A stretch of 64,000 nt of DNA from Nitrospirales bacterium (lineage in GTDB: Bacteria; Nitrospirota; Nitrospiria; Nitrospirales; UBA8639), in the NCBI GenBank assembly GCA_965223615.1, contig CBDCXB010000002.1, positions 114,267-178,266 on the forward strand. The letters run 5' to 3'. How positions within the stretch are numbered: the first letter of the stretch is position 1; each line of letters starts with the position of its first letter. A program made the translations under genes and the position numbers. Shown piece after piece: positions 4,651 through 22,191 of the stretch. The notes under the pieces were generated by a model. That model was not told the DNA's origin. It did not search any database and saw only the letters and a program-made list of their open reading frames with translations.

Positions 4651-6015
4651 TTATTGTTCAATGACGATAGTTTCAAGAAGGGCGGTTAAATTGGGTGCAT
4701 GCTCAAATGACCAAAGAAGGCCTAAAGCTTGAGCACACTGTTCCTTTGGCAATACCTGTCGGGCCAATGAACGAAATTTATTTTCTATCTCGATATCAGA
4801 GAGGGTATGCCCAGGGAAACCTTTGGGGTAGACCAAAGAAGTGGATAAAATCTCTCCAGAATTTGCAGTAACTTTCATATGGCAGTTGTATTCCTTGGCG
4901 AAACGTTGAGTAAAGGCAAAATCTTCATCTACATGTATTTTTTTGATCAGGGAGATCGTTCCTGAATCGGTCAGGGCTTCCTCACTGAAGCTTTTAGGTG
5001 TTATTTTCCCATGGTGAAAAGCGGTGGCGACTAAATAGGGAATGCTATGATCCGCCGTTTCCCGATTTTTGGGTTCCCATTTTTCTAATTCTGTTGCTGC
5101 GCTGGATACGGCTTTTCCATATGTTCGGATGTGAATGGAGGCGATGTCAGGGATTTGAATCTGTGGGCGTAGCTCTAGAGCGAGTGAGATTGGGCCTTGA
5201 GTATGAGTTTGGCAGGGATAAAGCTTGAAAATATTCGACATGATTCGGAAGCCTTCAGTATTATGAGAGAACGGTGTGATCGTCACGGTTTTTCCCAAGG
5301 TTTTTTCCATCAAGCCGTGTGTTCCCTCAAAAGGAGCGTTGGGCCCGGTCAATCCCAACTCCGCTAATTGAGCCATCACGATGGCCGTGCGTGATGAATT
5401 GGCTGCCGCACACCCTTTCCACATAGATAGTTCCCCCGTTCGTGTTACCCCAAGAGGTAAATTCGAAACCATGGCTAGAGAAATGGCATGTCCGAGAGTC
5501 TGATGATTAAGTCCCAGAATTTTTCCAACTCCACAAACAGCTCCGATGACACTGAGGGTGCCATGATCCCATCCCAGGTCTCCAATGGGTATTTGATCCG
5601 ACAGACGACAAAATATTTCATAGGCAAGCACAATTGCAGTGATTGTTGTCTGTCCATCGCAATCCATGGCGTCGGACATGGCTAGTATTGCGGAAAGCAT
5701 ATCGCTAGGATGTCCACCACTGGGTGATGCATAGGCATCGTTGTAATCCAGATAACGAGCCATGCAACCATTGGCGAAGGCCGTCATCTCAGGTGAACTG
5801 GTACTTTGCATACCCCAAATTCTAGAGCTTTTACGGCATTTCAGCCCTTGAGCCCACTTTTTAGCTATATGAGAAGGAGGGGAATGGAATCCTCCAAGTG
5901 CACACCCTAGAGTGTCTATGAGTATTCGCTTGGTCTGGTGTACAACCTCAGGGGGGAGATGGTTATAGGTAAGGCTGCGGGTATAGACGCTAAGCAATTC
6001 AGTGGTTCGGTCCAT
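4651..6015 (-). CDS. prpD: MmgE/PrpD family protein (2-methylcitrate dehydratase-like)
   Basis: TKRILIDTLGCALG, RYLDYND, GGHPSD, KLYPCQTH and YPKGFPGH motifs; 454 aa. Confidence 0.85.
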   Translation of the reverse strand: MDRTTELLSVYTRSLTYNHLPPEVVHQTKRILIDTLGCALGGFHSPPSHIAKKWAQGLKCRKSSRIWGMQSTSSPEMTAFANGCMARYLDYNDAYASPSGGHPSDMLSAILAMSDAMDCDGQTTITAIVLAYEIFCRLSDQIPIGDLGWDHGTLSVIGAVCGVGKILGLNHQTLGHAISLAMVSNLPLGVTRTGELSMWKGCAAANSSRTAIVMAQLAELGLTGPNAPFEGTHGLMEKTLGKTVTITPFSHNTEGFRIMSNIFKLYPCQTHTQGPISLALELRPQIQIPDIASIHIRTYGKAVSSAATELEKWEPKNRETADHSIPYLVATAFHHGKITPKSFSEEALTDSGTISLIKKIHVDEDFAFTQRFAKEYNCHMKVTANSGEILSTSLVYPKGFPGHTLSDIEIENKFRSLARQVLPKEQCAQALGLLWSFEHAPNLTALLETIVIEQ

Positions 6016-6219
6016 GAGGAATCTCTTGGTCGTATTAACTTTTTTATCTCAGGTTCCTATATTCTAGGCCGAAAAAACAGTATATGCTAGGAGTATAAAA
6101 TGAGATATGCCGGTAGGATGTCTAAAAACTTTCTATAGCTCACCTTGATGAATAAACAATATCGATGAAATAATATATTTGATGATGCCTTGTCTGGCTA
6201 ATACTTTTATGTGTTCTGA

Positions 6220-8100
6220 TTGAATGTGCATAGTTTCACTACTCGAAAACCCCCTATGCCCGAACATGGCCTTTCAACGGAAACTTTCCAGCCTTTTGCT
6301 CGATCAGAACTCGAAAAATCTCTGACCGAACGATTCCAGCATCAAGTCAATCAATTCCCAAATCGATTGGCAATCGGACATTCAACTGGCGATTTGACCT
6401 ACGATGAGTTAAATCGAAAAGCCAATGTTGTGGCCAGGAAAGTACTGGAGCGAGTGCTCCCGGGTACAAGGCCTGTTGCCCTTCTTTTCCATTCTGACAC
6501 TGATATGATTGTGGCCTTGCTTGGGGTTCTCAAAGCCGGGCATTTCAGTGTTCCATTGGACCCGTCCCATCCGGCTGGAAGAAATGCGATGATTGTGCAG
6601 GAAGTTCAGCCGGATTTACTCCTCACTAATCATCAAGGAGCAGAGCATTCAGAGGCTCTCGCCCTTCATGTCACCAATATTTTAAATATAGAAGAAATAC
6701 CCAATGGCACCAATGAGACCAATCTTGATGGTCCCAATTTGCCAAGGTCTCTGGCTTTTGTGTTGTTTACCTCAGGGACAACCGGGGCTCCAAAAGGTGT
6801 CGTGATCACCCATCAACTCCTTATGCATTTAGTCATGTACCATACGAATACCCGACAAATTTGTTCAGATGACCGGTTTTCTTCTTTAACACGATGTCAT
6901 CATATTGGTGGGATCGCCGATGTTTTTCGGGCCTTGCTAAATGGCGCAGGGTTGTTTCCCTATGATTTGCGAATTCAAACCGTTGGTGAGTTGATCGAAT
7001 GGCTTATCGATAGGCATATTACGATACTTCACTGTGTGCCTACCATTTTCCGTATGCTAATGGATCAACTTCCGTCAGGTGAACTCCTGCCCTCTTTACG
7101 CCTGATTCACCTTGGGGGGGAACCTGTGACCAAACGAGATGTTGAGCTTTACCAAGAACGTTTTTCGGGCCATTGCCTGTTGGTGAATAACTTTGGTTCT
7201 TCAGAAACCGGGCCGTTGGGTCAGTACTTCGTCACGAAAAACACAAAGTTATCCCATACGATCGTCCCAATCCATTTGAAAGTCGAGGACAAGGAAATAT
7301 TCCTGGTGAACCGGACTCCTTTACCAGATGGCCAAGGAGAGGTTGGGGAGATTGCCGTGAGAAGTCAATATTTGTCTCCGGGGTATTGGGAAAAATCCGA
7401 TAATGACCCAGTCGAGAGATTTGTCGATAAGCGAAACCGCTTCAGAACTTTCCTTACGGGTGACTTAGGTCAGATGGGACCCGATGGGCTCATTCTATAT
7501 AAAGGACGTAAGGATCACCAAGTGAATCTTCGAGGCTTTCGAGTGGATCTGATTGAAGTGGAAGCCAGGATTCGCAATATTACCGACTGCAAGGATGTCG
7601 CGGTGGTTGCCGGAGTATCTGTCGAAGAGGAGGTGCAGCTTGTTGCCTATTTGGTCTCAAAACAAGATATTGAACCAGAGGTAACCGTCCTTCGGAAACG
7701 ACTGTCAGATATATTACCTGGGTACATGATACCGGAGGAATTCTATTTTCTAGATCAATTTCCCAGAACTGCGACGGGCAAAGTTGACCGTCAAGCCCTT
7801 TCCGTCGAATACCAAGATCGTAAAAACCCACCCATTGAGTGTGTCGCTCCACAAAATGAACTGGAGGAAGGGCTTGTGCAATTATGGAAAGATCTGTTGA
7901 ATGTGCCTTCCCTAGGTACTCGGAATAAATTTATAGATTTAGGAGGAAACTCTCTTATTGCCACAAGATTGTCTAATCGAATCGAAGGTTGGTTGGGAAT
8001 TCGATTAACCATTGGGGACATTTTGGCTCATCCGACGATTGAAGAATTATCCCAATACATTCTTGATCGAGAGCCTAGTTCGCCCATTGTTGATGACTGA
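6220..8100 (+). CDS. Stand-alone NRPS-like adenylation + carrier (A-PCP) didomain protein
   Basis: A3 FTSGTTGAPKG, A5 NNFGSSET, A7 TGDLG, A8 GRKDHQVNLRGFRVDL, A10 PRTATGKVDR; PCP motif FIDLGGNSL. No C or TE domain. Alternative start ATG 6256. Confidence 0.93.
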   Translation: MNVHSFTTRKPPMPEHGLSTETFQPFARSELEKSLTERFQHQVNQFPNRLAIGHSTGDLTYDELNRKANVVARKVLERVLPGTRPVALLFHSDTDMIVALLGVLKAGHFSVPLDPSHPAGRNAMIVQEVQPDLLLTNHQGAEHSEALALHVTNILNIEEIPNGTNETNLDGPNLPRSLAFVLFTSGTTGAPKGVVITHQLLMHLVMYHTNTRQICSDDRFSSLTRCHHIGGIADVFRALLNGAGLFPYDLRIQTVGELIEWLIDRHITILHCVPTIFRMLMDQLPSGELLPSLRLIHLGGEPVTKRDVELYQERFSGHCLLVNNFGSSETGPLGQYFVTKNTKLSHTIVPIHLKVEDKEIFLVNRTPLPDGQGEVGEIAVRSQYLSPGYWEKSDNDPVERFVDKRNRFRTFLTGDLGQMGPDGLILYKGRKDHQVNLRGFRVDLIEVEARIRNITDCKDVAVVAGVSVEEEVQLVAYLVSKQDIEPEVTVLRKRLSDILPGYMIPEEFYFLDQFPRTATGKVDRQALSVEYQDRKNPPIECVAPQNELEEGLVQLWKDLLNVPSLGTRNKFIDLGGNSLIATRLSNRIEGWLGIRLTIGDILAHPTIEELSQYILDREPSSPIVDD

Positions 8101-8155
8101 GAATTGAGTGTGAAGATGAAGGATAGATGAGGTTCCCATTTGAAGGACGCATGAA

Positions 8156-9106
8156 GTGAATCAACTCTTCTCTACTCTCACTGACACCTATCTGGAGATT
8201 CCTGAAGCCGTTTCGGTTCTCCTCGCGAATTTTAAGGAAGATCTCTTTAAGCGGAGGTCACGTCTCTACGTCCCTTTAATTTGTGAAGAATTCCTTCAGA
8301 CGATTTCCTCGACGATTGTCGATGGGCTGATCTTTGACTTGGAAGATAGTGTACCTCCTCACCAAAAGGAGTTGGCAAGATATAACATTACTAAGATTCC
8401 ACCAAAAACAAAAGGGGTTGAACATATCCTTAGAATCAATGCCTATCAATCTGGACTTTGGAAAAAGGATTTGGAATTCCTTGATCAATACCCATTTGAT
8501 ACAGTCATGATACCCAAAGTGGAAGCTGCACAGCATGTTGAAATTATTTCTGAGCACTTCCCCACTTCTGGTGTAAGAAAAGTCGTCCTGATTGAAACCA
8601 TTCATGGAATTTGGAATCTTCGTGAAATTGCCAGAACCTTAGGGGAGGGTGATGCGATGGGCTATGGGGCAGGAGATCTGTCCACCACGTTCGGCGTGGC
8701 CCGTGAACCGATCCATGAGTCGTTGATCCTTCAACGCATACTCATGGAGGTACTCATGGCCGCCAAATATGTGGGGGTCGATGTGTTTGATCCTCCATTT
8801 CGAAACTTTTCCGATATGTCGACTTTAGAGAAAGAAGCCCAATTTGGTCGTAAATGTGGAACGATAGGGAAGCAAGCGGTGCACCCTTCGCAATTAGAAA
8901 TCATCAATCGCATATACTCCCCTACAAAGTCCGAGATTGAACAATTCGTCAGAGAATTGGATGGGTTTGCCCATCAAAAGGATCGACAAGCTATAAAAAT
9001 TGATAGAACGTATAAAGGCAAACCATCTAAAGTTCTGGCCGAACAAAAGTTGAAAGATTATGTCAGAAGAGGCTACATTAAGCTGCTTTCTCCAACCAAA
9101 ATTTAA
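8156..9106 (+). CDS. HpcH/HpaI aldolase / citrate lyase beta (CitE-like) family protein
   Basis: RRSRLYVP, DGLIFDLEDSV, RINA, VMIPKVE, LIET and GKQAVHPSQ motifs. Confidence 0.9.
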   Translation: MNQLFSTLTDTYLEIPEAVSVLLANFKEDLFKRRSRLYVPLICEEFLQTISSTIVDGLIFDLEDSVPPHQKELARYNITKIPPKTKGVEHILRINAYQSGLWKKDLEFLDQYPFDTVMIPKVEAAQHVEIISEHFPTSGVRKVVLIETIHGIWNLREIARTLGEGDAMGYGAGDLSTTFGVAREPIHESLILQRILMEVLMAAKYVGVDVFDPPFRNFSDMSTLEKEAQFGRKCGTIGKQAVHPSQLEIINRIYSPTKSEIEQFVRELDGFAHQKDRQAIKIDRTYKGKPSKVLAEQKLKDYVRRGYIKLLSPTKI

Positions 9107-9449
9107 CCAAGAATATTGGGAAGCGATAAAAGTAGAAGTCTTCAATGATCCAGTAATTTTTCTAACGCCTGATTTCATTCTGTGCTTGAGGTGTGCGGGA
9201 TAACAAAATCCCTTGGTTTTCTGATCGTCCCTCCCCTTAAATCCTGTTTCCTGGATCGGACTTTTTAAAAATAGAAGAGAATCTCCCTTATGAGGGGTCC
9301 ATTGGTTGACTATTTTCACTAAGCCCGTATGATGGTCATGGTAGTTCTATGGAAATTTCATTTTTACGGGGACGAATGGATTCATTATTTACATGTGGCT
9401 CGAGGTCTTACGGATAACTTGATATCCAGAGTTGAAGGGGAAAACGTAA

Positions 9450-9965
9450 ATGCCCAATGGTGGATCGGATTGTTGCGGGACTTGTTGGTTCAACGCTAAG
9501 AATAAAGGGGAGGCTGGATATCAACATGCATCTGATCCGGGAACAGCATTTTGCATCATTCGGGATTTAGAGATAAGAAATCCCTTTTACACCTATTGCG
9601 CCAATCATCCCCATCGTTGTCCCAATCGGGATCCAATTCCTATAGGTCCGGTCTATACCGGTGACTCCTCCGGTGAGCGAAAGGTTTGGATGTGTTCGCC
9701 TGACTCAGAAGAAATTCGCCAGCATTTGCTCTTCCTGCTGGGTGAAATCGTGGAGCAACCACGCTCCGAGTACCCTATAGGAATCTATGCAGACGAAGCC
9801 GTCGTTTGGCAGTTGGGTGAATTCAGGGAACAGCGAGCTGTAAAGCACCTTCAGAGAATCCTGCAATTTCAGCCTGAAGCTGCTGAATCGGGACCGTTTG
9901 GCCGAACTCGTAAATATTTGATCCATCTTTCCCGCGATGCGTTAGGGAAGATTGAACGTGATTGA
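9450..9965 (+). CDS. Hypothetical protein with a Cys-rich N-terminus and HEAT-like C-terminus
   Basis: MPNGGSDCCGTCWFN...FCIIR...YCANHP, then helical AVVWQLGEFREQRAVKHL; purine-rich RBS. Confidence 0.75.
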   Translation: MPNGGSDCCGTCWFNAKNKGEAGYQHASDPGTAFCIIRDLEIRNPFYTYCANHPHRCPNRDPIPIGPVYTGDSSGERKVWMCSPDSEEIRQHLLFLLGEIVEQPRSEYPIGIYADEAVVWQLGEFREQRAVKHLQRILQFQPEAAESGPFGRTRKYLIHLSRDALGKIERD

Positions 9966-10080
9966 ATTTAGAAAACGATTGGAATCAATCCAATCTAACT
10001 ATTGAAAGTCTTTCGTTGAGTCAAACCGGAAAGTTATTGCCTGCCCATTTCCCAGGTACCGACACTTCCCTGAAAATGCT

Positions 10081-10254
10081 CTATGTTTGGGCCGTTTCTT
10101 GGCCTTGTTCGTCTTTTTTAGTTCTGCCGCCCAATTATCAAAAGTTGTTTTAGGACATGACCAGATTTGGGAGCTGGTGGCCTATTTTGATTTTGATAGG
10201 GAAGGAAATCGGCCGGCATGGTTTGCATCCAATGTACTTTTGTTGTGTACGTAA
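10081..10254 (+). pseudogene. Remnant of a membrane protein (FDFDREGNRPAWF motif)
   Basis: Manual translation LCLGRFLALFVFFSSAAQLSKVVLGHDQIWELVAYFDFDREGNRPAWFASNVLLLCT*. It resembles, from recall, the FdlDxExNxPxWF motif of polysaccharide-locus membrane proteins; truncated. Confidence 0.4.
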
Positions 10255-10520
10255 TGGCTTCCTTGAATTGTTTGTCAACAATGCATTACAAAGAACTCCT
10301 CCACAAAGTATAGGGTTTATCGATGTGTGATTTTTTCTTTTCGTCTATAGACGAATCCCTGGGAGCGCATGAACGGGGCATTTTGCCCTTGCAACGAGCT
10401 TGAGGGGTTGGAGGTTTTTTCTTGTGTCATTCCAGGGGCCTTGTTCCCGGCTATTTTTGCCCAAGTTTTTTCCCATTCTTCAATCTTCTGTTTACATCCT
10501 ATAAACAAAAAATTCTATTC

Positions 10521-10739
10521 TCAGGTTGTGTCTACGGTGGTGCAGCTCTCGACTTGTTCAGGCGGGACCGTTGCGACAATTCGCTTTGACGCGTCTAAAA
10601 TGAAACTTGAAACGCCGTGATCCAACAGAGTTTTGGCACTGGCTAGTCCGGTAGAGTCTCCTCCGACAATGATGACATCATAAGAATGAAGGATGCTGTA
10701 ATCCTGGATGATTGTTCCTCCCCCCCCATGAGTTGCCAA
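10521..10739 (-). pseudogene. Remnant of an FAD-dependent oxidoreductase N-terminus
   Basis: YDVIIVGGDSTGLASAKTLLDHGVSSFILDASKRI is a Rossmann beta-alpha-beta with a broken GxGxxG; the ORF stops shortly after. Confidence 0.6.
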
Positions 10740-11377
10740 ATATTATCATGTCGGGGTTTGGACGGGTTTGTCCATGATAGAAAGACGGATAGTACCGGCT
10801 TATCAATAATGGGATTACGGATTCGCCCCGAGTGAACCAATCCCTACTGAGGCATACACCAAAGATCCATCCTGAATGTCTGCGGAGAAGCCCCAATTTT
10901 TTGTTCTGAACTAGGCCCATTGCGATAGGAAAATTATGCTCGTTAAAGGGATGAGGCATGCTATCTTCGAATGCCTAGACCTGGTTTTCCCGCAGTTATT
11001 ACAGTTGAAGGGTGTCTGGCGAACGCTTGAGGAATTTTTCTCTTAAGACTCCTCTTTTAGTGGTCGATGAATATTATCGAAAGTGTATGATCTTCGGATG
11101 AGTGCACCTTTGTCAGGAAAGCGAATGGCTGTTAAGGATGAGTTGAGCCGTCATTGCAACATTATCACCAGATAGTATTGTTTCATAACATGGTTCCATA
11201 TTTACCACGAAGGCCGTTCTCAGTGCCTCCAAGTAGTCAGCCTCAATTGTTCGATTCCTAATCATGTCCTTCTGTCCCCCTCAGTTGTACCTCTCAAGGT
11301 CTAGAGACGAGCCCGCATTCCTGTATGAACACTTTAAGACGCCGGTTACCCTGTGCGCCTACTAAGGAATAAAATAT

Positions 11378-13246
11378 ATGTGTGGAATCTTTGGAATTAT
11401 CTATAACGATAATCAGCGTAAGCCTAGCGAAGATCAACTGCGACGCTCTGCTGAGCTTCTCACTCATCGTGGACCAGATGATTGTGGGATTTACAGTGAA
11501 GGAGGAATTGGACTTGTTCACACTCGTTTGGCACTCGTTGATCTCGATGTACGGAGTGCCCAACCGATGTGGGACCCAACGAATCGATATTGCTTGATCT
11601 ACAACGGAGAAATCTACAACTTTCGAGAGTTAAAAGAAAAATTGGTGGCTGCCGGTGTTCCATTTCGGACAACGAGTGATACCGAGGTTCTCATGCAGTC
11701 CCTGATCGTACTGGGAATAGAACAAACGTTACCAAAACTAAAGGGCATGTTTGCCTTCGCTTTCTACGATAGGCAACAACGACAAGTTCTCCTGGCGCGC
11801 GATCGCTTCGGTATCAAACCGTTACTGGTCTACCGCGACAAGACACAATTAATATTCTCATCAGAAGTAAAAGCCATGGGTCCATGGATTGAACTTAAGC
11901 CTAATGCGGCACGGATGACAAGTTTCTTGATGGCGTTCAAGCCTCCAGCACAGAACGCTTCGTTTTTCGAATACATCGATATCCTCCCCCCGGGAACAGG
12001 GATAAATCTGGATGTGGGAGCAAAACCGGTGGTACGCCACTACGGGGATGCCATCGATATGATTGATCCCGAGCGGTATGAATATCTTGCCAGGCTTAGT
12101 AAAGAACAAATCGTCGACCATGTGGATGAATTGTTGCAAGAATCGGTCGAAATGATGTTGATGGCAGACGCCCCGGTTGGGGCCTTATGTAGTGGGGGTG
12201 TAGATTCTTCCCTGATCATGGCGATGGCAGCTCGCAGACATCAGAACCTTGCGATCTTTCATGCCAATGTACTCGGTCCGTTGAGTGAATTCTCCGCAGC
12301 GAATGAACTCGCACGACACCTTAAACTGGATTTGTTAACTGTTGAGACTCGAGATGAGGATTTTCTCGAGTTAACTCCTGAAGTGCTTTGGCATTACGAA
12401 CAACCGTATTGGCAGCATCCGCATAGTGTGCCATTTTTGCAGGTGTCCAAGTTGGTGGAAAAAAGTGGTGTTAAGGCTGTTCTTACCGGTGAAGGTTCAG
12501 ATGAGTGCTTTCTTGGATACCCAAGGCTTGCCCAAGAGCCTCTTTGGGAATTCTACCGAAAGCAAATCGATAGAGTGTCTCGTATCGTTCGTGCGATTCC
12601 AAAAGTGGGAGATTGTTTGTGGGCTCAGCCCAGCCGGGAACATTCCCTTATTGGGAGGATGTTGACACAATTCGAAATAATTTCAAATGAGACTAGGGCG
12701 CGAAGGGAATTTGTGAAAAAGTGGGGCAGACAGCCAGACCGCGGGATTCGTAGCCTGGATCTCATGACTCACCATTTACGGACGTTATTGCATCGCAATG
12801 ACACCATGGGTATGGCAGCAAGTATAGAATCCCGTTTTCCTTTTCTGCATGAAGATCTGGTCAGGACGGCGATCAATCTTCCTTATGAGTACAAAATTCG
12901 ATTCCAAGCGAACGTTTGGGAGAAAAACCACCCTTTCCTTAGAGATAAATGGGTCATACGTGCCGTGGCTGACCGGTACCTACCAAAAAGTTTAAGCCAA
13001 CGAAAGAAACTTGGATTTCACGTGTCCACCTTTCATCGCGTGCGAATCCCCAAGCGGTATTTTCAAGGCGGATTTGTGGCGGATTTCTTCAACCTTAGGG
13101 ATCACGAACTTAACCTATTATTCGAAAACAACAACCAGGATCTCGAAGTCAGGATGATGATGTTGGAGGCATGGGCACAAATTTTCATCGAGGGAACAAG
13201 CCAGGGCGCAGTTGGTGATCAATTATGCGAGTACGCACATTTCTAA
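11378..13246 (+). CDS. asnB: Asparagine synthetase B-like glutamine amidotransferase
   Basis: N-terminal MCGI (Ntn Cys), HRGPD, YNGEIYNF, RDRFGIKPL, SGGVDSS and TGEGSDE motifs. Confidence 0.93.
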   Translation: MCGIFGIIYNDNQRKPSEDQLRRSAELLTHRGPDDCGIYSEGGIGLVHTRLALVDLDVRSAQPMWDPTNRYCLIYNGEIYNFRELKEKLVAAGVPFRTTSDTEVLMQSLIVLGIEQTLPKLKGMFAFAFYDRQQRQVLLARDRFGIKPLLVYRDKTQLIFSSEVKAMGPWIELKPNAARMTSFLMAFKPPAQNASFFEYIDILPPGTGINLDVGAKPVVRHYGDAIDMIDPERYEYLARLSKEQIVDHVDELLQESVEMMLMADAPVGALCSGGVDSSLIMAMAARRHQNLAIFHANVLGPLSEFSAANELARHLKLDLLTVETRDEDFLELTPEVLWHYEQPYWQHPHSVPFLQVSKLVEKSGVKAVLTGEGSDECFLGYPRLAQEPLWEFYRKQIDRVSRIVRAIPKVGDCLWAQPSREHSLIGRMLTQFEIISNETRARREFVKKWGRQPDRGIRSLDLMTHHLRTLLHRNDTMGMAASIESRFPFLHEDLVRTAINLPYEYKIRFQANVWEKNHPFLRDKWVIRAVADRYLPKSLSQRKKLGFHVSTFHRVRIPKRYFQGGFVADFFNLRDHELNLLFENNNQDLEVRMMMLEAWAQIFIEGTSQGAVGDQLCEYAHF

Positions 13247-18496: not shown

Positions 18497-19054
18497 TCAG
18501 GCTGTTTTCTGCTTCCGATACCGCCAGAATCCTAACCCAGCTAAGCCTGTGCCGAAGAGGATCATAGTGGAGGGTTCGGGGATGGGTGCGGTGGTCACAA
18601 CACCCTTGGTTACCAGGATGCTGGTGCCACCCTGAGTCCCTGCACAGGCGGGAAATCCCCCACCGCCCATATTACATTCACCTTCCCTAGAAGTCATTTG
18701 TGTCGTGTCGATATCGACAGTGCCACCGGCATCAGTTAACGGGGACGAAAATAAAAGGACGAGTATTGGGTCATTCCCATTCGGAGTGTTATCGGTGAGG
18801 GCACTTAACCGATCAGGGCCAGAGGGGTTAAAGGCGTTGGGGTTTTCAAACGTATAGGTATTTGGGGTCGTTGTCATGATCATAATGTTGGAATATGTAT
18901 CGGTTGTTCGGTCATAGTCAAATGACCCATCGGCGGTAGCCCCGTTCTCAAACATCACGTCTTGCAAATGCCAGGTTAAGTTGAGGCCAAATGCAGGGAA
19001 GGTGAACGCCATAGTGAAAAGAACAACACTAATCCCAAAAAAAGTTTTATTCAT
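18497..19054 (-). CDS. PEP-CTERM sorting domain-containing secreted protein
   Basis: Signal peptide; C-terminal PIPEPSTMILFGTGLAGLGFWRYRKQK. Confidence 0.93.
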   Translation of the reverse strand: MNKTFFGISVVLFTMAFTFPAFGLNLTWHLQDVMFENGATADGSFDYDRTTDTYSNIMIMTTTPNTYTFENPNAFNPSGPDRLSALTDNTPNGNDPILVLLFSSPLTDAGGTVDIDTTQMTSREGECNMGGGGFPACAGTQGGTSILVTKGVVTTAPIPEPSTMILFGTGLAGLGFWRYRKQKTA

Positions 19055-19311
19055 GATCTTCCTCCGACCCCAATAAATAAAGAATTCCTCGTAAACATTA
19101 TAAAAAGCAACCCAATTTCTTATATTTCAATGAAAGTGCCCAAAACTCTCAACAATAGGCCACAATTATACACAAGGAGCCTCAACGAACACACCCCCTC
19201 AAAAGAACTATAAGGAAAGAGGGAAGCAGGAGTCTCTTGCAATGTTAGAGGCAATTTTAGTCATTTGATGTGGAACTAGGCCGTTTGCGACCCAGACGTC
19301 CGCTTTGGGTC

Positions 19312-20982
19312 CAGGCTGTGTGAAAACTTCAACTTGCCCATCATTAGCCATGCGCTACTTGGCGCAGCAGGCCATCTCCTCTTGAGTTGTTCGTTGAGAC
19401 GAACGTTTCTGTTTTGGAGCCCCATGAGCAACCTACTGCGTCACAGGCGGCGCTCCTGCGTCCATTTTTGTGGGTAGGAGGGTGGCCCTCACGCTTGGAT
19501 TGCCTGGAGGAGTGGCTTCACCCCAAGGATGGCCAACACCCGTTTGAAGTTGTACGCCAACACATGCAAACTCATCTCGGTGCGCACATGCTTGAGCGTT
19601 TTCATTTGGAAATGGGTGGCGCCCATCCAGGCTTTCAAGGTCCCGAATGGATGCTCCACCGTTTGTCGTCGCATGCGCATCCGCTCTGGCTCTCGCTCGA
19701 GACGGCCTTCGGCAGCCTCCAGCACGGCTTCATGTTCCCAGCGTGTGATTCGCCGATTCCTCCCGGTCGTACACTGCGACTTGATGGGACAGGTCGGACA
19801 GTGCGAGGACCAGTATCTGTGAAGCGTTAAGCCTTTCTCCTGTGTCTTGAACCGCCAGATCAAGCGTTCCCCGGCTGGGCACGCATACTCATTCTTGTCC
19901 GCGTGGTACACGAAGTCGCGTTTGCTGAACAACCCTTTCTTCGGACTCCCTGAGGTCTGCGGTTTGGGAAGATAGGTCGTAATCTTTGACTGTTCACAGG
20001 CCAGGAGTTCTTCACTGGTGAAGTAGCCCCGGTCAGCGACCACCTCGAGAGTCTCTGCTCCGATGGCCTCCTTCGCTTGGTGCGCCATGTGGTGCAACTG
20101 GTGCCGATCATGCCCTTCATTAGTGACCTCGTGAGTTACGATCAAGTGATGTGTCGCATCCACTGCTGTCTGCACGTTATACCCCACCATCCCCGTGCCT
20201 CGACCACTGGTGGCCATCGACCGCGCATCCGGGTCCGTCAGGGAGAGCTGTTGGTCCGGGGCTTGAAGCATTTGGACTTCGAGTTTTTTGAGACGTGCCA
20301 TTTCCGTCTTCAGGGCTGCGATCTTGTCCTCCAGCCGTTGGGTTTTGTCCTTGGCCACCGCCGCTTCGTGCCGATCCGCGCTGGCGATCTGGCTCAGATA
20401 CCGTTCAATGCTCTCATCAATCTGTTGTAAGCGGCGCTGGAGCTTGGCCTTGGTGAAGTTTCGGTCTCGATTATTCACGGCCTTGAACTTACTGCCGTCG
20501 ATGGCCACAAAGGCGTCGGCAAACAGATTGAGTTTCTTGCAGAGCAGGATGAACTCGCGACAGACCAAGCGAATGGCGGGCCCATTGTTCTTGCGAAAGT
20601 CGGCGATAGTCTTAAAGTCCGGGGCTAAGTGTCCGGTCAGCCACATGAGTTCCACGTTGCGGTGGGCTTCGCGTTCCAGACGACGACTGGATTGGATCCG
20701 GTTGAGATAGCCGTAGACATAAAGCTTCAACAGGGTTGTGGGGTGGTAGGCGGGGCGGCCCGTTTCCTCTGAATGGGTCTTGAAGCCCAGCCCGGAGAGA
20801 TCCAGCTCGTCGACGAAGACATCGATCACCCGAACGGCGTTGTCTTCGGCAATATACTCATCCAATCGTTCGGGGAACAGGGTCGCTTGGTGGCGATCGG
20901 TCCCTTGAATAAATCCACTCATTCCTGACACCTCCCTTGGAAAGGTGCAGTATACCTTCTTCAAGAGTTTTCACACAGCCTG
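19312..20982 (-). mobile_element. IS1182 family insertion sequence
   Basis: 17-bp terminal inverted repeats CAGGCTGTGTGAAAACT (19312-19328 and 20966-20982); 4-bp target duplication GGTC (19308-19311 and 20983-20986). Confidence 0.93.
19489..20922 (-). CDS. IS1182 family transposase
   Basis: MSGFIQGTDRHQATLFP..., GRPAYHP, PDFKTIADFR, DGSKF, TDPDAR, GYNVQ, ADRGYF and TVEHPFGTLK motifs; GGAGG RBS before ATG 20922. Confidence 0.96.
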   Translation of the reverse strand: MSGFIQGTDRHQATLFPERLDEYIAEDNAVRVIDVFVDELDLSGLGFKTHSEETGRPAYHPTTLLKLYVYGYLNRIQSSRRLEREAHRNVELMWLTGHLAPDFKTIADFRKNNGPAIRLVCREFILLCKKLNLFADAFVAIDGSKFKAVNNRDRNFTKAKLQRRLQQIDESIERYLSQIASADRHEAAVAKDKTQRLEDKIAALKTEMARLKKLEVQMLQAPDQQLSLTDPDARSMATSGRGTGMVGYNVQTAVDATHHLIVTHEVTNEGHDRHQLHHMAHQAKEAIGAETLEVVADRGYFTSEELLACEQSKITTYLPKPQTSGSPKKGLFSKRDFVYHADKNEYACPAGERLIWRFKTQEKGLTLHRYWSSHCPTCPIKSQCTTGRNRRITRWEHEAVLEAAEGRLEREPERMRMRRQTVEHPFGTLKAWMGATHFQMKTLKHVRTEMSLHVLAYNFKRVLAILGVKPLLQAIQA

Positions 20983-21274
20983 GGTCGGGAACCGACCGGT
21001 TGAAACCGCAGCCCAAAAGCGGACGTTTCATTAGAAATGTTTTTGGCGGAAGCGGAAAGATTTCTTTCCCACCCTGATAACCGCCACAGAACGCACGGAG
21101 CGACTCCATCAATCACCTAAGACAATGGCATTCATTAGAGGAAATACTGTATGGACATACCCCTTCAAAAGAGGGGTAAAGCTACTCAGATAGCTTATGT
21201 TACGTTCTGTTTCCGTTCATTCCGGTCGTTTTCACGAGAACTATAATAGAATTTCAATTTAATTTGGAGGAGAC

Positions 21275-21853
21275 ATGCTGCCTAAATTCTCTTACTACAA
21301 ATTAGTTTTACTGCTGGGACTTTCAATCATCAGCACAGGCACGTTTTCCCCACAAGAAGCGGCAGCATTACATATATTCCAATGGAGTTTTGAGGCAACA
21401 TTTGATGAGGGTGGTACCGTTACCGGTAGAATAGAGTACGACACTTCTACATCGACGATCATAACCGCGGAGGCCACATCGGATGGAGGAACCAAGTGGA
21501 CACCTCGGACATTTGACACTATTCAATTCAATAATAACTCAAACTGGATACGATTAATTGATGCAGCGGACGGGGCGGATTGGAGCTGAAGCCCAGGGTT
21601 AGATTTAGTACCAGATACGAACTGGGGCACACCCGGAGACCTGGGCGTGTTTTTGATCGAGTGCATTTCCGCCGCGTGCGATCTCGGGGATTTCAGGATT
21701 GAACCAAACACGTCCACCGTCACCGTAACAAATCGCACTCATACGGACCCGATTCCCGAGCCGGCCACCCTGTTATTATTCGCCAGCGGCCTTCTCGGCC
21801 TAGCTGGCTATCGATGGCAGCAACGGCGACGTGAGGGGACCCAGGTCGGATAA
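21275..21853 (+). pseudogene. PEP-CTERM protein interrupted by one in-frame TGA (21587-21589)
   Basis: ORFs 21275..21589 and 21647..21853 share a frame and the intervening sequence is open (SPGLDLVPDTNWGTPGDLGV). Signal peptide at the start; PIPEPATLLLFASGLLGLAGYRWQQRRR at the end. Confidence 0.85.
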
Positions 21854-21880
21854 CGAACTTACCTCAGATAGATAGTTAGG

Positions 21881-21919
21881 GAAGCCTCTTGTCGTCAGGA
21901 TGAGAGGCTTTCTTTTTTT
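21881..21919 (+). terminator. Intrinsic terminator
   Basis: gaagcctct...agaggctttc followed by a T-tract. Confidence 0.65.
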
Positions 21920-22115
21920 CTATAATCTTCAACTTCCGACTCACAAAATCTGAGCCATGCTCTTTGTGCCTTGCCTCATGCGTCACAAGCCTTGAGCCTT
22001 GGGTCTTACGAGGTGGGGCTCGCGACTTGTGATGCAAGAGAGGGATTAAACTTTAAGTAACCTAACGAAGAAAGTCAGACTGGTATTGAGAGGGAGGGAA
22101 TGAGGTTGGAAAAAA

Positions 22116-22191
22116 TGGAGCTGGCGAAGGGAATCGAACCCCCAACCTGCGGTTTACAAAACCGCTGCTCTGCCGATTGAGCTACGCCAGC
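22116..22191 (-). tRNA. tRNA-Thr(UGU)
   Basis: GCTGGCGTAGCTCAATCGGCAGAGCAGCGGTTTTGTAAACCGCAGGTTGGGGGTTCGATTCCCTTCGCCAGCTCCA: 76 nt, cloverleaf, TGT anticodon, TTCGA T-loop, CCA end. Confidence 0.97.

What the first reader, a model, noticed from the sequence alone, without database searches (positions are those of the whole stretch)
4651..13246. PrpD-like + stand-alone A-PCP + CitE-like + AsnB: compact organic-acid biosynthetic cluster
Seen: prpD-like is divergent from an A-PCP/CitE-like pair, with asnB nearby. Knowledge: the MmgE/PrpD family includes citrate/methylcitrate dehydratases, iminodisuccinate epimerase and cis-aconitate decarboxylase. CitE-like enzymes cleave citryl/citramalyl/malyl thioesters, and AsnB paralogs amidate glycans and natural products. 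Inference: a carrier-tethered di/tricarboxylic acid is made and cleaved, then transferred to a glycan or small molecule. I do not recognise this combination as a described pathway.
Basis: partly seen in the sequence, partly recalled or inferred. Interest (0 to 1): 0.68.

Follow-up and report, generated by a model that had tools for sequence, protein, structure and literature searches.

The report
Carrier-linked CitE/PrpD organic-acid gene module
Three of the four genes form a rare, mobile and uncharacterised unit: a peptide-synthetase-type loader for a non-amino acid, an unusual citrate-lyase-like enzyme and a PrpD-like enzyme, which probably build an unusual multi-carboxyl acid on a carrier protein, while the asparagine-synthetase-like gene is only a neighbour.

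Summary
All four genes are real: PrpD-like (4651-6015, -), A-PCP (6256-8100, +), CitE-like (8156-9106, +) and AsnB-like (11378-13246, +).

PrpD<->A-PCP-CitE recurs as a unit in three Nitrospirales genomes, further metagenome contigs and a gammaproteobacterial contig, each time with different flanks. It is accessory: 3 of 201 Nitrospirales genomes carry it.

AsnB is not part of it. One module-bearing genome lacks it. Another has it 2.8 Mb away in a glycan/NRPS operon.

- **A domain.** It lacks Asp235 (Ile instead) and the Pro of the YGPTE motif, as alpha-keto and alpha-hydroxy acid-activating domains do. Its code IGAHHGNPLK, preceded by two His, is almost invariant in all 12 orthologues.
- **CitE-like protein.** It belongs to a tiny clade (about 20 clusters in 5.8 billion proteins). 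It keeps the CitE fold, the Mg ligands and the Arg. In all 21 members the lid Asp, otherwise reported as conserved superfamily-wide, is Gly.
- **History.** The CitE/PrpD pairing predates the A-PCP, which joined one subclade. In one lineage A-PCP-CitE sits in a small NRPS cluster.

Best reading (about 0.4): a carrier-thioester-coupled route to an oxo- or hydroxy-polycarboxylate. The order of steps and the substrate are unresolved. I found no description in the literature searched.

The parts
4651..6015 (-). MmgE/PrpD-family protein (454 aa). Motifs: LDYND (5731-5751), GGHPSD with His102 (5701-5718), GWDHG with His151 (5560-5574), Lys200 (5413-5427), Lys264 (5215-5232).
   Evidence: Pfam N and C domains. 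PrpD equivalogs score far below cut-off (147 of 950 bits). PDB best hit is 2-methylcitrate dehydratase, 4e-28. Orthologues at 61-67% identity sit in the same divergent position in L001, L003 and L004. It belongs to a large subfamily found mostly outside the module.
6016..6255 (.). Divergent intergenic (promoter) region between the PrpD-like and A-PCP genes.
   Evidence: Geometry. No motif is conserved between orthologous spacers. Only consensus-level promoter matches were found.
6256..8100 (+). Stand-alone adenylation-PCP didomain (614 aa from ATG 6256; the ORF is open from TTG 6220). A4 region CHHIGGIA 6895-6918 (Ile at position 235). A5 FGSSE within 7183-7218 (Ser replaces the conserved Pro). 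Lys517 within 7768-7788. PCP LGGNSL 7939-7956.
   Evidence: Pfam AMP-binding, AMP-binding_C and PP-binding. HMMER alignment to GrsA 1AMU gives the code I G A H H G N P L K. The code is near-invariant in 12 orthologues. The A5 Pro is absent in all 60 closest family members.
8156..9106 (+). Divergent CitE-like Mg2+-dependent C-C lyase/synthase (316 aa). DLEDS 8333-8353, Arg93 in ILRINA 8426-8443, Glu123 in PKVE 8510-8530, Asp174 in GAGD 8663-8683, lid hairpin T-Y286-K-G288-K-P-S-K 9008-9034 (Gly replaces the catalytic Asp), RRGY 9062-9079.
   Evidence: Pfam HpcH_HpaI. AF2 pLDDT 95.9, with best Foldseek hits malyl-CoA lyase, CLYBL and Mtb CitE at TM 0.71-0.84 including the lid. Clade alignment and tree. 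Asp numbering checked on 4l9y and 4l7z.
11378..13246 (+). AsnB-family glutamine amidotransferase. It is a neighbour, not part of the module.
   Evidence: TIGR01536 above cut-off. Not syntenic in any related locus. The orthologue in G134 sits in a glycan/NRPS operon 2.8 Mb from the module, and G164 has no match at E <= 1e-30.

Best explanation
**What it is.** PrpD-like, A-PCP and CitE-like form an autonomous, horizontally mobile thiotemplate module. It makes an unusual oxo- or hydroxy-polycarboxylic acid unit.

**Proposed mechanism**
1. The A domain adenylates a non-amino acid, of alpha-oxo or alpha-hydroxy type and probably with additional carboxylates. It loads this acid on the phosphopantetheine arm of its own PCP.
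2. The CitE-like enzyme binds the pantetheine-bound acyl group under its lid. At its Mg2+/Arg site it forms a C-C bond between that acyl group and a 2-oxoacid. The reverse (cleavage) is less likely.
3. Because the usual thioester-enolising Asp is Gly, the base is different, perhaps Tyr286. Alternatively the thioester acts as the electrophile, which would free the carrier without a thioesterase.
4. The PrpD-like enzyme dehydrates or hydrates the free polycarboxylate, either before loading or after release.
5. In one lineage the carrier-bound unit is passed to an NRPS.

**Shown**
- Gene content and co-conservation.
- The A-domain code.
- The CitE fold, its retained Mg and Arg residues, and the lost Asp.
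- Independence from AsnB.

**Inferred**
- That the CitE-like enzyme works on the PCP thioester.
- The direction of the reaction.
- The identity of the acid.
- The position of the PrpD step.
For: - **Adjacency.** A(-PCP) is always immediately upstream of the CitE-like gene in all readable contexts, with identities falling in parallel: A-PCP 70/61/59/54/51% and CitE 73/63/62/56/54%. This is the pattern of A-PCP plus on-carrier tailoring enzyme pairs.
- **Autonomy.** The unit carries no C, TE or R domain and has different flanks each time. It is patchy, in 3 of 201 Nitrospirales, so it should be self-sufficient.
- **A domain.** No Asp235 (Ile, as in the keto-acid domain StsA; PMC11253843) and no A5 Pro. 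The pocket has His278, His299 and Asn322, with His233 and His234 beside it. The code is almost invariant. A PCP Ser motif is present, and the genome holds one PPTase.
- **CitE-like protein.** High-confidence CitE fold, with the pantetheine-binding lid retained. Arg93, Glu123, Asp174 and DLEDS are kept. The lid Asp is Gly in all 21 members (PMC3832036), which fits a thioester that needs no alpha-deprotonation.
- **NRPS context.** A-PCP-CitE lies inside a compact NRPS cluster (L104/L105), which points to biosynthesis.
- **PrpD linkage.** PrpD-family partners accompany this CitE clade in three lineages.
- **Family behaviour.** A characterised MmgE/PrpD enzyme, methylsuccinate isomerase, is active on the free acid and not on its CoA ester (PMC12290011). 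CitE-like enzymes can combine aldol condensation with thioester hydrolysis (PMC6689899).
Against: - Sister and basal members of the CitE clade (L112 at 56%, L012 at 49%, L106 at 40%) sit with PrpD but without any A-PCP.
- Only about 10 conserved positions separate A-linked from A-less CitE proteins, so a PCP thioester is not required for this enzyme type.
- An alpha-oxo/alpha-hydroxy-type A domain would thioesterify the carboxyl next to the oxo or hydroxy group. That is not the position used by canonical CitE substrates.
- L007 has the A domain without a PCP.
- Loss of the catalytic Asp leaves the chemistry undefined.
- No biochemical data exist, and the substrate is unknown.
Confidence: 0.4

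Rival explanations
1. Supply-then-load. The CitE-like and PrpD-like enzymes act on free acids or ordinary CoA esters. They make an alpha-hydroxy or alpha-oxo polycarboxylate, such as a substituted malate/citrate or a 4-hydroxy-2-oxo acid, which may then be dehydrated. The A domain activates that finished acid and parks it on the PCP, for hand-over in trans to an NRPS condensation domain or another acyl acceptor.
For: - The CitE/PrpD pair is ancestral and works without A-PCP in sister lineages, where it sits with isochorismatase-like and EamA/TauE transporter genes.
- The products of CitE-type reactions are alpha-hydroxy or alpha-oxo acids with additional carboxylates. That matches an A domain with keto/hydroxy-acid hallmarks and a His-rich pocket (PMC11253843).
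- In L104 the A-PCP looks like the loading module of a two-module NRPS.
- All three module-bearing Nitrospirales genomes are NRPS-rich.
- A related A-PCP (42% identity) sits beside an RraA-like aldolase-family gene and an Ldh_2 gene.
Against: - No acceptor (C, TE or acyltransferase) travels with the three-gene unit, although it moves between genomes with changing flanks.
- The strict A-PCP-to-CitE adjacency is tighter than usual for mere precursor supply.
- Without the lid Asp, a Claisen-type synthase step from acetyl-CoA is itself doubtful.
Confidence: 0.3
2. Catabolic or detoxifying route modelled on itaconate/methylsuccinate degradation. The PrpD-like enzyme converts a free unsaturated or wrong-isomer C4-dicarboxylate-type acid into the accepted form. 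The A-PCP replaces the CoA transferase. The CitE-like lyase splits the thioester into a 2-oxoacid and a short acyl group.
For: - The best family and PDB hits of the CitE-like protein are RipC and CLYBL, which are citramalyl-CoA lyases.
- A known cluster combines a thioester-forming enzyme, an MmgE/PrpD enzyme acting on the free acid, and a CitE-like lyase (PMC12290011).
- The His-rich pocket suits a polycarboxylate.
- The PCP-less L007 variant could yield a CoA ester.
Against: - There is no hydratase or dehydrogenase.
- The cost is ATP to AMP per turnover.
- The residual acyl group would block the PCP, with no transferase or TE to remove it.
- The pair lies inside an NRPS cluster.
- The enolate-protonating lid Asp is lost.
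- It is an accessory unit in a chemolithoautotroph lineage.
Confidence: 0.1
3. First reader's extended model. The AsnB-like amidotransferase belongs to the pathway and amidates the acid, or transfers it to a glycan or small molecule.
For: - AsnB lies 2.3 kb downstream on the same strand.
- Among 26 genomes of the genus, its orthologue occurs only in the two that also carry the module.
- In G134 it directly precedes an NRPS gene in a glycan operon.
Against: - It is not adjacent to the module in any other locus.
- G164 has the module but no AsnB match at E <= 1e-30.
- In G134 the two are 2.8 Mb apart, and the neighbouring NRPS there has ordinary Gly-type A domains only 28-31% identical to the window's A domain.
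- G000 and G134 are congeners, so shared accessory genes are expected.
Confidence: 0.08

Closest known systems
Citrate lyase system CitC/CitD/CitE/CitF (EC 4.1.3.6; description from general knowledge, not from a paper read here)
   Same: An ATP-dependent adenylating ligase puts an acyl group on the thiol of a dedicated carrier protein. A CitE-fold, Mg2+-dependent enzyme handles the carrier-bound thioester and a 2-oxoacid.
   Different: - The carrier here is an NRPS-type PCP fused to an NRPS-type A domain, not CitD with its phosphoribosyl-dephospho-CoA group.
- No CitF transferase was seen among the neighbours.
- The CitE-like protein scores 97 bits against the CitE cut-off of 443.
- It lacks the catalytic lid Asp.
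Itaconate/methylsuccinate degradation cluster of Pseudomonas and Cupriavidus: Ict, Ich, Ccl, methylsuccinate isomerase, methylsuccinyl-CoA dehydrogenase (PMC12290011); also RipABC
   Same: It has the same trio of enzyme types: a thioester-forming enzyme, an MmgE/PrpD enzyme acting on the free C4-dicarboxylate-type acid, and a CitE-like C-C lyase. RipC is the best NCBIfam hit.
   Different: - It uses a CoA transferase and CoA esters instead of A-PCP.
- The hydratase and acyl-CoA dehydrogenase are absent here.
- The PrpD-like protein here appears to lack the second-base Tyr of the isomerases (Leu four residues before His151, judged by motif spacing only).
- The CitE-like protein is about 25% identical and lacks the lid Asp.
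Methylcitrate logic PrpE-PrpC-PrpD, and alkylcitrate or dialkylmaleic-anhydride biosynthesis (tautomycetin TtnMOPR, PMC11350588; details of those genes from memory)
   Same: An acid is activated as a thioester, condensed with a 2-oxoacid to a hydroxy-polycarboxylate, and then dehydrated by a PrpD-type enzyme.
   Different: - The condensing enzyme is of the CitE fold, not the citrate-synthase fold.
- The thioester carrier is a PCP.
- The PrpD-like protein scores far below the PrpD equivalog cut-offs.
[quoted passage not shown]
   Same: Asp235 is replaced by an aliphatic residue (Ile, as in StsA Ile306). The A5 Pro is replaced. The protein is stand-alone A-PCP, and close relatives often carry a TE.
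   Different: - There is no KR, TE or C domain.
- The His-rich pocket code IGAHHGNPLK matched no characterised domain I could find.
- It is paired with a CitE-like enzyme.

Membership tests
CitE-like superfamily (citryl/malyl/citramalyl-CoA lyases, CLYBL) | HpcH_HpaI TIM-barrel with a C-terminal helix/beta-hairpin/helix lid | tested here: met
   Pfam PF03328 at 5e-29. The AF2 model (pLDDT 95.9) shows a barrel plus H258-273, hairpin 280-287 and H289-304. Top Foldseek hits are 4l9y, 5vxo and 6aq4, at TM 0.71-0.84 over about 270-315 columns.
CitE-like superfamily | Mg2+ ligands Glu and Asp, and the Arg next to the 3-hydroxyl (Rv2498c Glu112, Asp138, Arg64; PMC6689899) | tested here: met
   Glu123 (PKVE), Asp174 (GAGD) and Arg93 (LRIN) align with the PDB homologues. 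They are conserved in the clade. In the NRPS-linked L104 type, Glu123 is Asn.
CitE-like superfamily | Catalytic Asp on the lid beta-hairpin (Asp299 in MCL-R, Asp318 in MCL-C). It is stated to be conserved in the whole superfamily and in malate synthases, with Glu only in the thioesterase group (PMC3832036). | tested here: not met
   The lid motif M-[VI]-D-x-P of generic CitE aligns to Y286-K-G288-K-P here. Gly is present in all 21 clade members, and the hairpin has no conserved acidic residue. The identity of the Asp column was verified by numbering on 4l9y and 4l7z.
CitE-like superfamily | Scores above the curated equivalog cut-offs (CitE TIGR01588; RipC/Ccl NF038242) | tested here: not met
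   97 bits against 443, and 112 bits against 375. The clade is separated from generic CitE by a long, fully supported branch.
CitE-like superfamily | Acts on a pantetheine thioester (CoA or carrier protein) | not testable with these tools
   There are only indirect arguments: the lid is retained, and an A(-PCP) gene lies adjacent.
Citrate lyase complex CitCDEF | CitD acyl carrier and CitF transferase encoded with CitE | tested here: not met
   No such domains were found in the ORFs scanned around the module. The carrier is a PP-binding PCP fused to an A domain.
NRPS amino-acid adenylation domain | Asp235 binding the alpha-amino group; Lys517; the YGPTE Pro | tested here: not met
   Position 235 is Ile and the A5 motif reads FGSSE. 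Lys517 is present. TIGR01733 scores 283 bits against a cut-off of 317.
NRPS-type carrier module | AMP-binding core, C-terminal subdomain and a PCP with the GGxS serine | tested here: met
   PF00501, PF13193 and PF00550 all hit. LGGNSL lies at residues 574-579 of the ORF. One PPTase gene is present in the genome.
[quoted passage not shown] | Asp235 replaced by a small or aliphatic residue, and the A5 Pro replaced (StsA Ile306 and Met415; PMC11253843) | tested here: met
   Ile235 and Ser in place of the Pro, conserved in the orthologues. The Pro is absent in all 60 closest relatives. Actual substrate preference was not tested.
MmgE/PrpD family | N- and C-terminal MmgE/PrpD domains | tested here: met
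   PF03972 at 1.8e-70 and PF19305 at 3e-38. PDB hits are PrpD, CAD and IDS epimerase.
MmgE/PrpD family | Conserved carboxylate-binding and catalytic His and Lys residues (PaMsi His102, His152, Lys202, Lys266; PMC12290011) | tested here: inconclusive
   GHPS His102, WDH His151, Lys200 and Lys264 lie at matching spacing, and the GHPSD block aligns with PrpD. I made no structure-based mapping. The residue four positions before His151 is Leu, not the isomerases' Tyr.
2-methylcitrate dehydratase PrpD proper | Equivalog-level score | tested here: not met
   147 bits against 950, 132 against 575, and 108 against 458.
Itaconate/methylsuccinate degradation cluster | CoA transferase, MaoC-type hydratase and acyl-CoA dehydrogenase encoded with Ccl and the MmgE/PrpD protein | tested here: not met
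   None of these is in the module or its conserved neighbourhood.
AsnB as pathway member | Co-conservation with the other genes | tested here: not met

The most novel reading that the evidence does not exclude
This would be the first CitE-superfamily enzyme to work on an NRPS-type PCP thioester. An 'NRPS-style citrate lyase/synthase' clade has swapped the universal catalytic Asp of the lid for Gly, with an invariant Tyr two residues upstream on the same hairpin strand. It uses the carrier-bound 2-oxoacyl or acyl thioester in a C-C bond-forming step that needs no thioester enolisation, for example attack of a Mg2+-bound oxoacid enolate on the thioester, which releases the carrier. The result would be a new class of polycarboxylate building blocks for free acids and for nonribosomal peptides.
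Probability: 0.25. Interest if true: 0.75.

Novelty: new variant of a known kind. Interest (0 to 1): 0.58.

Why it matters
- **New connection.** If the model holds, thiotemplate (NRPS) logic and citrate-lyase-type C-C chemistry are joined in a way not described before.
- **A testable enzyme subfamily.** It defines a CitE subfamily with a different catalytic lid. Y286F and G288D mutants would test this directly.
- **A substrate lead for a large family.** It offers a lead for the many stand-alone A-PCP(-TE) proteins that lack Asp235 and the A5 Pro.
- **Possible products.** It points to unknown polycarboxylate metabolites, which might include metal chelators, anhydride-type inhibitors or acyl caps of peptides. 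The hosts would be nitrite-oxidiser relatives and other uncultured bacteria.
- **If it is only precursor supply.** It still annotates a rare accessory gene unit and removes AsnB from it.

Tried and rejected
- **AsnB as a member: rejected.** It shows no synteny, is absent in G164 and is unlinked in G134.
- **Central-metabolism role: rejected.** An alternative citrate cleavage for the reductive TCA cycle does not fit a module present in only 3 of 201 Nitrospirales genomes.
- **Canonical amino-acid NRPS module: rejected** on the specificity code.
- **True PrpD, CitE or RipC equivalogs: rejected** on curated cut-offs.
- **Conserved regulatory motif or RNA in the divergent spacer: none found**.
- **Other syntenic genes: none**.
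- **Separate PCP or A-PCP orthologue for the A-less or PCP-less variants:** none found in L007, nor in the incomplete genomes holding L012 and L013.
- **The 428-aa protein after CitE in L012:** no family or PDB match.
- **Literature:** searches for this gene combination found nothing relevant. The tautomycin and tautomycetin cluster papers were not held.
- **A-linked against A-less CitE sequences:** only about 10 scattered differences, so this did not settle whether the thioester carrier changed.
- **NRPS content of module-bearing genomes:** does not discriminate, because NRPSs are common in the genus.

Full report
**1. What is in the window**

Positions 4651-13246 hold four clear genes.
- **PrpD-like protein:** 4651-6015 (-), 454 aa, MmgE/PrpD family.
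- **A-PCP:** ORF 6220-8100 (+). The start on record is ATG 6256, giving 614 aa. It has AMP-binding, AMP-binding_C and PP-binding domains.
- **CitE-like protein:** 8156-9106 (+), 316 aa, HpcH_HpaI family.
- **AsnB-family amidotransferase:** 11378-13246 (+), 622 aa.

PrpD is divergent from A-PCP across 240 bp. CitE follows A-PCP after 55 bp.

Between CitE and AsnB lie 2.27 kb with only small ORFs that match no family.

Relatives are named Nitrospirales. The genome is 4.18 Mb, 99% complete and NRPS-rich, with one PPTase gene.

**2. The conserved unit has three genes, not four**

The closest A-PCP relatives (51-71% identity) were traced to their contigs. PrpD<->A-PCP-CitE recurs in:
- two other Nitrospirales genomes (L001/L010 = G164, and L003/L011 = G134);
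- further metagenome contigs (L002, L004);
- a gammaproteobacterial contig (L007).

The flanks are entirely different each time. An all-against-all ORF comparison found no other shared gene.

Identities of the three proteins fall in parallel, so they are inherited as a unit.

The unit is accessory. It occurs in 3 of 201 Nitrospirales genomes, and in 2 of the sampled same-genus genomes.

AsnB is never next to it elsewhere.
- G164 has the module but no AsnB match at E <= 1e-30.
- In G134 the AsnB orthologue (60% identity) lies 2.8 Mb away.
- There it sits in an operon with a decarboxylase, a DegT aminotransferase, glycosyltransferases, a Wzy_C protein, a methyltransferase, a GNAT and a second AsnB.
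- That operon is followed by an A-PCP-C-A-PCP-TE synthetase. Its A domains have an ordinary Asp235/Gly-type code and are only 28-31% identical to the window's A domain.

**3. The A domain**

HMMER alignment to GrsA-PheA (1AMU) gives these specificity positions: 235 Ile, 236 Gly, 239 Ala, 278 His, 299 His, 301 Gly, 322 Asn, 330 Pro, 331 Leu, 517 Lys. His also sits at 233 and 234. This agrees with an earlier first-stage note.

The code is near-invariant in all 12 orthologues, with only Gly/Ala at 236 and Ala/Ser at 239 varying.

The Pro of the YGPTE motif is Ser. It is absent from all 60 closest family members, many of which are A-PCP or A-PCP-TE proteins.

A review of A-domain structures reports the same two changes in the alpha-keto acid domain StsA (Ile306 for the Asp, Met415 for the Pro). 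It also reports aliphatic replacements of Asp235 in alpha-hydroxy acid domains (PMC11253843).

From general knowledge of the code, His or Lys at 278 and 322 are used to bind side-chain carboxylates in Asp- and Glu-activating domains. My inference is a non-amino acid, probably of alpha-oxo or alpha-hydroxy type with further carboxylates.

**4. The CitE-like protein**

- **Rarity.** It belongs to a very small clade: about 19 clusters at 43% identity or more, plus three at 37-40%, among 5.8e9 proteins. Only four of 185,579 species representatives hold it.
- **Separation.** A long, fully supported branch separates the clade from generic CitE.
- **Fold.** The AF2 model is confident (pLDDT 95.9). 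Its best structural matches are all thioester-dependent: malyl-CoA lyases, CLYBL, Mtb Rv2498c and citramalyl-CoA lyase. They match at TM 0.71-0.84 and include the C-terminal lid.
- **Retained residues.** DLEDS, Arg93, Glu123 and Asp174 are kept. Their equivalents are Arg64, Glu112 and Asp138 of Rv2498c (PMC6689899).
[quoted passage not shown] It is reported as conserved across the whole superfamily and the malate synthases (PMC3832036). Here it is Gly288, in all 21 clade members.
- **Lid motif.** The lid reads Y286-K-G288-K-P-S-K, where generic CitE reads M-[VI]-D-x-P. I confirmed that this column is Asp299/Asp318 by numbering on 4l9y and 4l7z.

So the protein has the CitE fold but fails one defining catalytic feature. 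Tyr286, two residues upstream on the same hairpin strand, is a candidate replacement. That is inference only.

**5. History and other contexts**

The tree resolves the clade as follows.
- **Basal group:** L106/L107, with CitE, an SDR and a PrpD-family gene, and no A domain.
- **L013:** a contig end, so the context is unknown.
- **A-less sister group:** L112 and L012, with isochorismatase-like, PrpD, CitE and EamA or TauE genes.
- **A-linked sister group:** L007 lies at its base and has an A domain without a PCP, plus an LLM-class oxidoreductase gene downstream.

The A-linked group also holds the L104/L105 type. There, A-PCP-CitE lies in a compact NRPS cluster bounded by housekeeping genes. That cluster comprises:
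- C-A-PCP on one side;
- an unknown 296-aa protein, an O-methyltransferase, A-PCP and CitE in the middle;
- C-A-PCP-TE on the other side.

It has no PrpD gene.

The PrpD partners of the three groups belong to different MmgE/PrpD subfamilies, 25-35% identical to each other. The window's PrpD-like protein is part of a large subfamily, with hundreds of members at 55-60% identity. That subfamily mostly occurs outside the module, and once sits beside a split family-III CoA transferase.

In summary:
- The CitE/PrpD functional link is old and recurrent.
- The A(-PCP) was recruited once.
- The PrpD-type enzyme most likely works on a free acid. The characterised methylsuccinate isomerase of this family was active on the free acid and not on its CoA ester (PMC12290011).

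**6. Mechanism**

The following points are shown:
- gene content;
- co-inheritance as a unit;
- the non-amino-acid code of the A domain;
- the CitE fold with retained Mg and Arg residues and a lost Asp;
- a biosynthetic (NRPS) context in one lineage;
- independence from AsnB.

The readings, with my odds, are:
- **On-carrier coupling (about 0.4).** The A domain loads the acid on its PCP. The CitE-like enzyme then carries out a C-C step between the pantetheine-bound acyl group and a Mg2+-bound 2-oxoacid. The PrpD-like enzyme (de)hydrates the free acid before loading or after release. This accounts for three things:
  - the strict A-PCP-to-CitE adjacency;
  - the lack of any offloading domain in a mobile unit;
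  - a retained pantetheine-binding lid combined with loss of the enolising Asp.
- **Supply-then-load (about 0.3).** CitE-like and PrpD-like make the acid and the A-PCP loads the finished product. The A-less sister lineages favour this, as does the fact that CitE-type products are themselves alpha-hydroxy or alpha-oxo acids.
- **Catabolic route (about 0.1).** An itaconate-type degradation is unlikely: there is no hydratase or dehydrogenase, the carrier would be blocked, and one lineage has an NRPS context.
- **AsnB-coupled model (under 0.1).**

**7. Comparison with known systems**

The nearest analogues are:
- citrate lyase with its CitC ligase and CitD carrier;
- the itaconate/methylsuccinate cluster: CoA transferase, MmgE/PrpD isomerase and Ccl (PMC12290011);
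- PrpE-PrpC-PrpD, and dialkylmaleic-anhydride logic (PMC11350588);
- keto-acid-type NRPS-like A domains (PMC11253843).

None combines an NRPS A-PCP with a CitE-fold enzyme. Full-text searches for that combination returned nothing relevant.

Earlier notes of this scan describe other PrpD plus citrate-lyase-like operons with CitD-CitE fusions. I treated them as leads only.

**8. Verdict**

- It is a new variant of known kinds, rare and uncharacterised. Two concrete sequence features make it experimentally attractive: the Ile235/His-rich A-domain code and the Asp-to-Gly lid.
- Substrate, order of steps and product remain unknown.

Noticed in passing
window 9107-11377: A 2.27-kb gene-poor stretch lies between CitE and AsnB. 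Its only sizeable ORF (9450-9965, 171 aa) has a Cys-rich N-terminus (CCGTCW...YCANHPHRCP), matches no family and has no counterpart in related loci.
   Followed up: partly
L113 (G134:C1:1028000-1047900): The AsnB orthologue sits in a glycan-type operon: Orn/DAP decarboxylase, DegT, GT4, Wzy_C, methyltransferase, GNAT, a second AsnB and a GT1. An A-PCP-C-A-PCP-TE synthetase with two Gly-type A domains follows directly. This may be an NRPS-decorated glycan system.
   Followed up: partly
P0018-P0060; L008 5878-9911: A large family of stand-alone A-PCP(-TE) proteins (Binatia, Chloroflexi and others) lacks both Asp235 (mostly Asn) and the A5 Pro, and has His/Arg/Lys-rich codes. One member sits beside RraA-like aldolase-family, Ldh_2 and PEP-mutase genes. 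I did not look for described substrates.
   Followed up: no
L104 2771-5965 (-) and 6146-7036 (+): In the NRPS cluster that holds A-PCP-CitE, the first C-A-PCP protein shows no HHxxxDG motif and no Asp235 in my alignment. The unknown 296-aa protein looks like a second SAM methyltransferase by eye. The CitE-like protein there has Asn in place of the Mg-ligand Glu123.
   Followed up: partly
L012 9003-10289: A 428-aa protein directly after the A-less PrpD-CitE pair in a Legionellaceae MAG has no Pfam, NCBIfam or PDB match. It is a candidate missing partner, for example an activating enzyme.
   Followed up: partly
L106 and L107: Called genes on these contigs (GC 41-43%) are separated by unusually long uncalled gaps of about 0.7-1.7 kb. 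This hints at missed genes, an unusual genetic code or low coding density.
   Followed up: no
one search hits P0273, P0279, P0285 and others: Distant CitE relatives of about 375-410 aa carry a fused citrate-lyase ACP domain (PF06857). This is another lineage in which a CitE-type enzyme is welded to a carrier.
   Followed up: no
window 18497-22191: A PEP-CTERM protein (18497-19054), a DDE transposase (19489-20964) and tRNA-Thr (22116-22191) lie just downstream. This is consistent with a rearranged accessory region.
   Followed up: no
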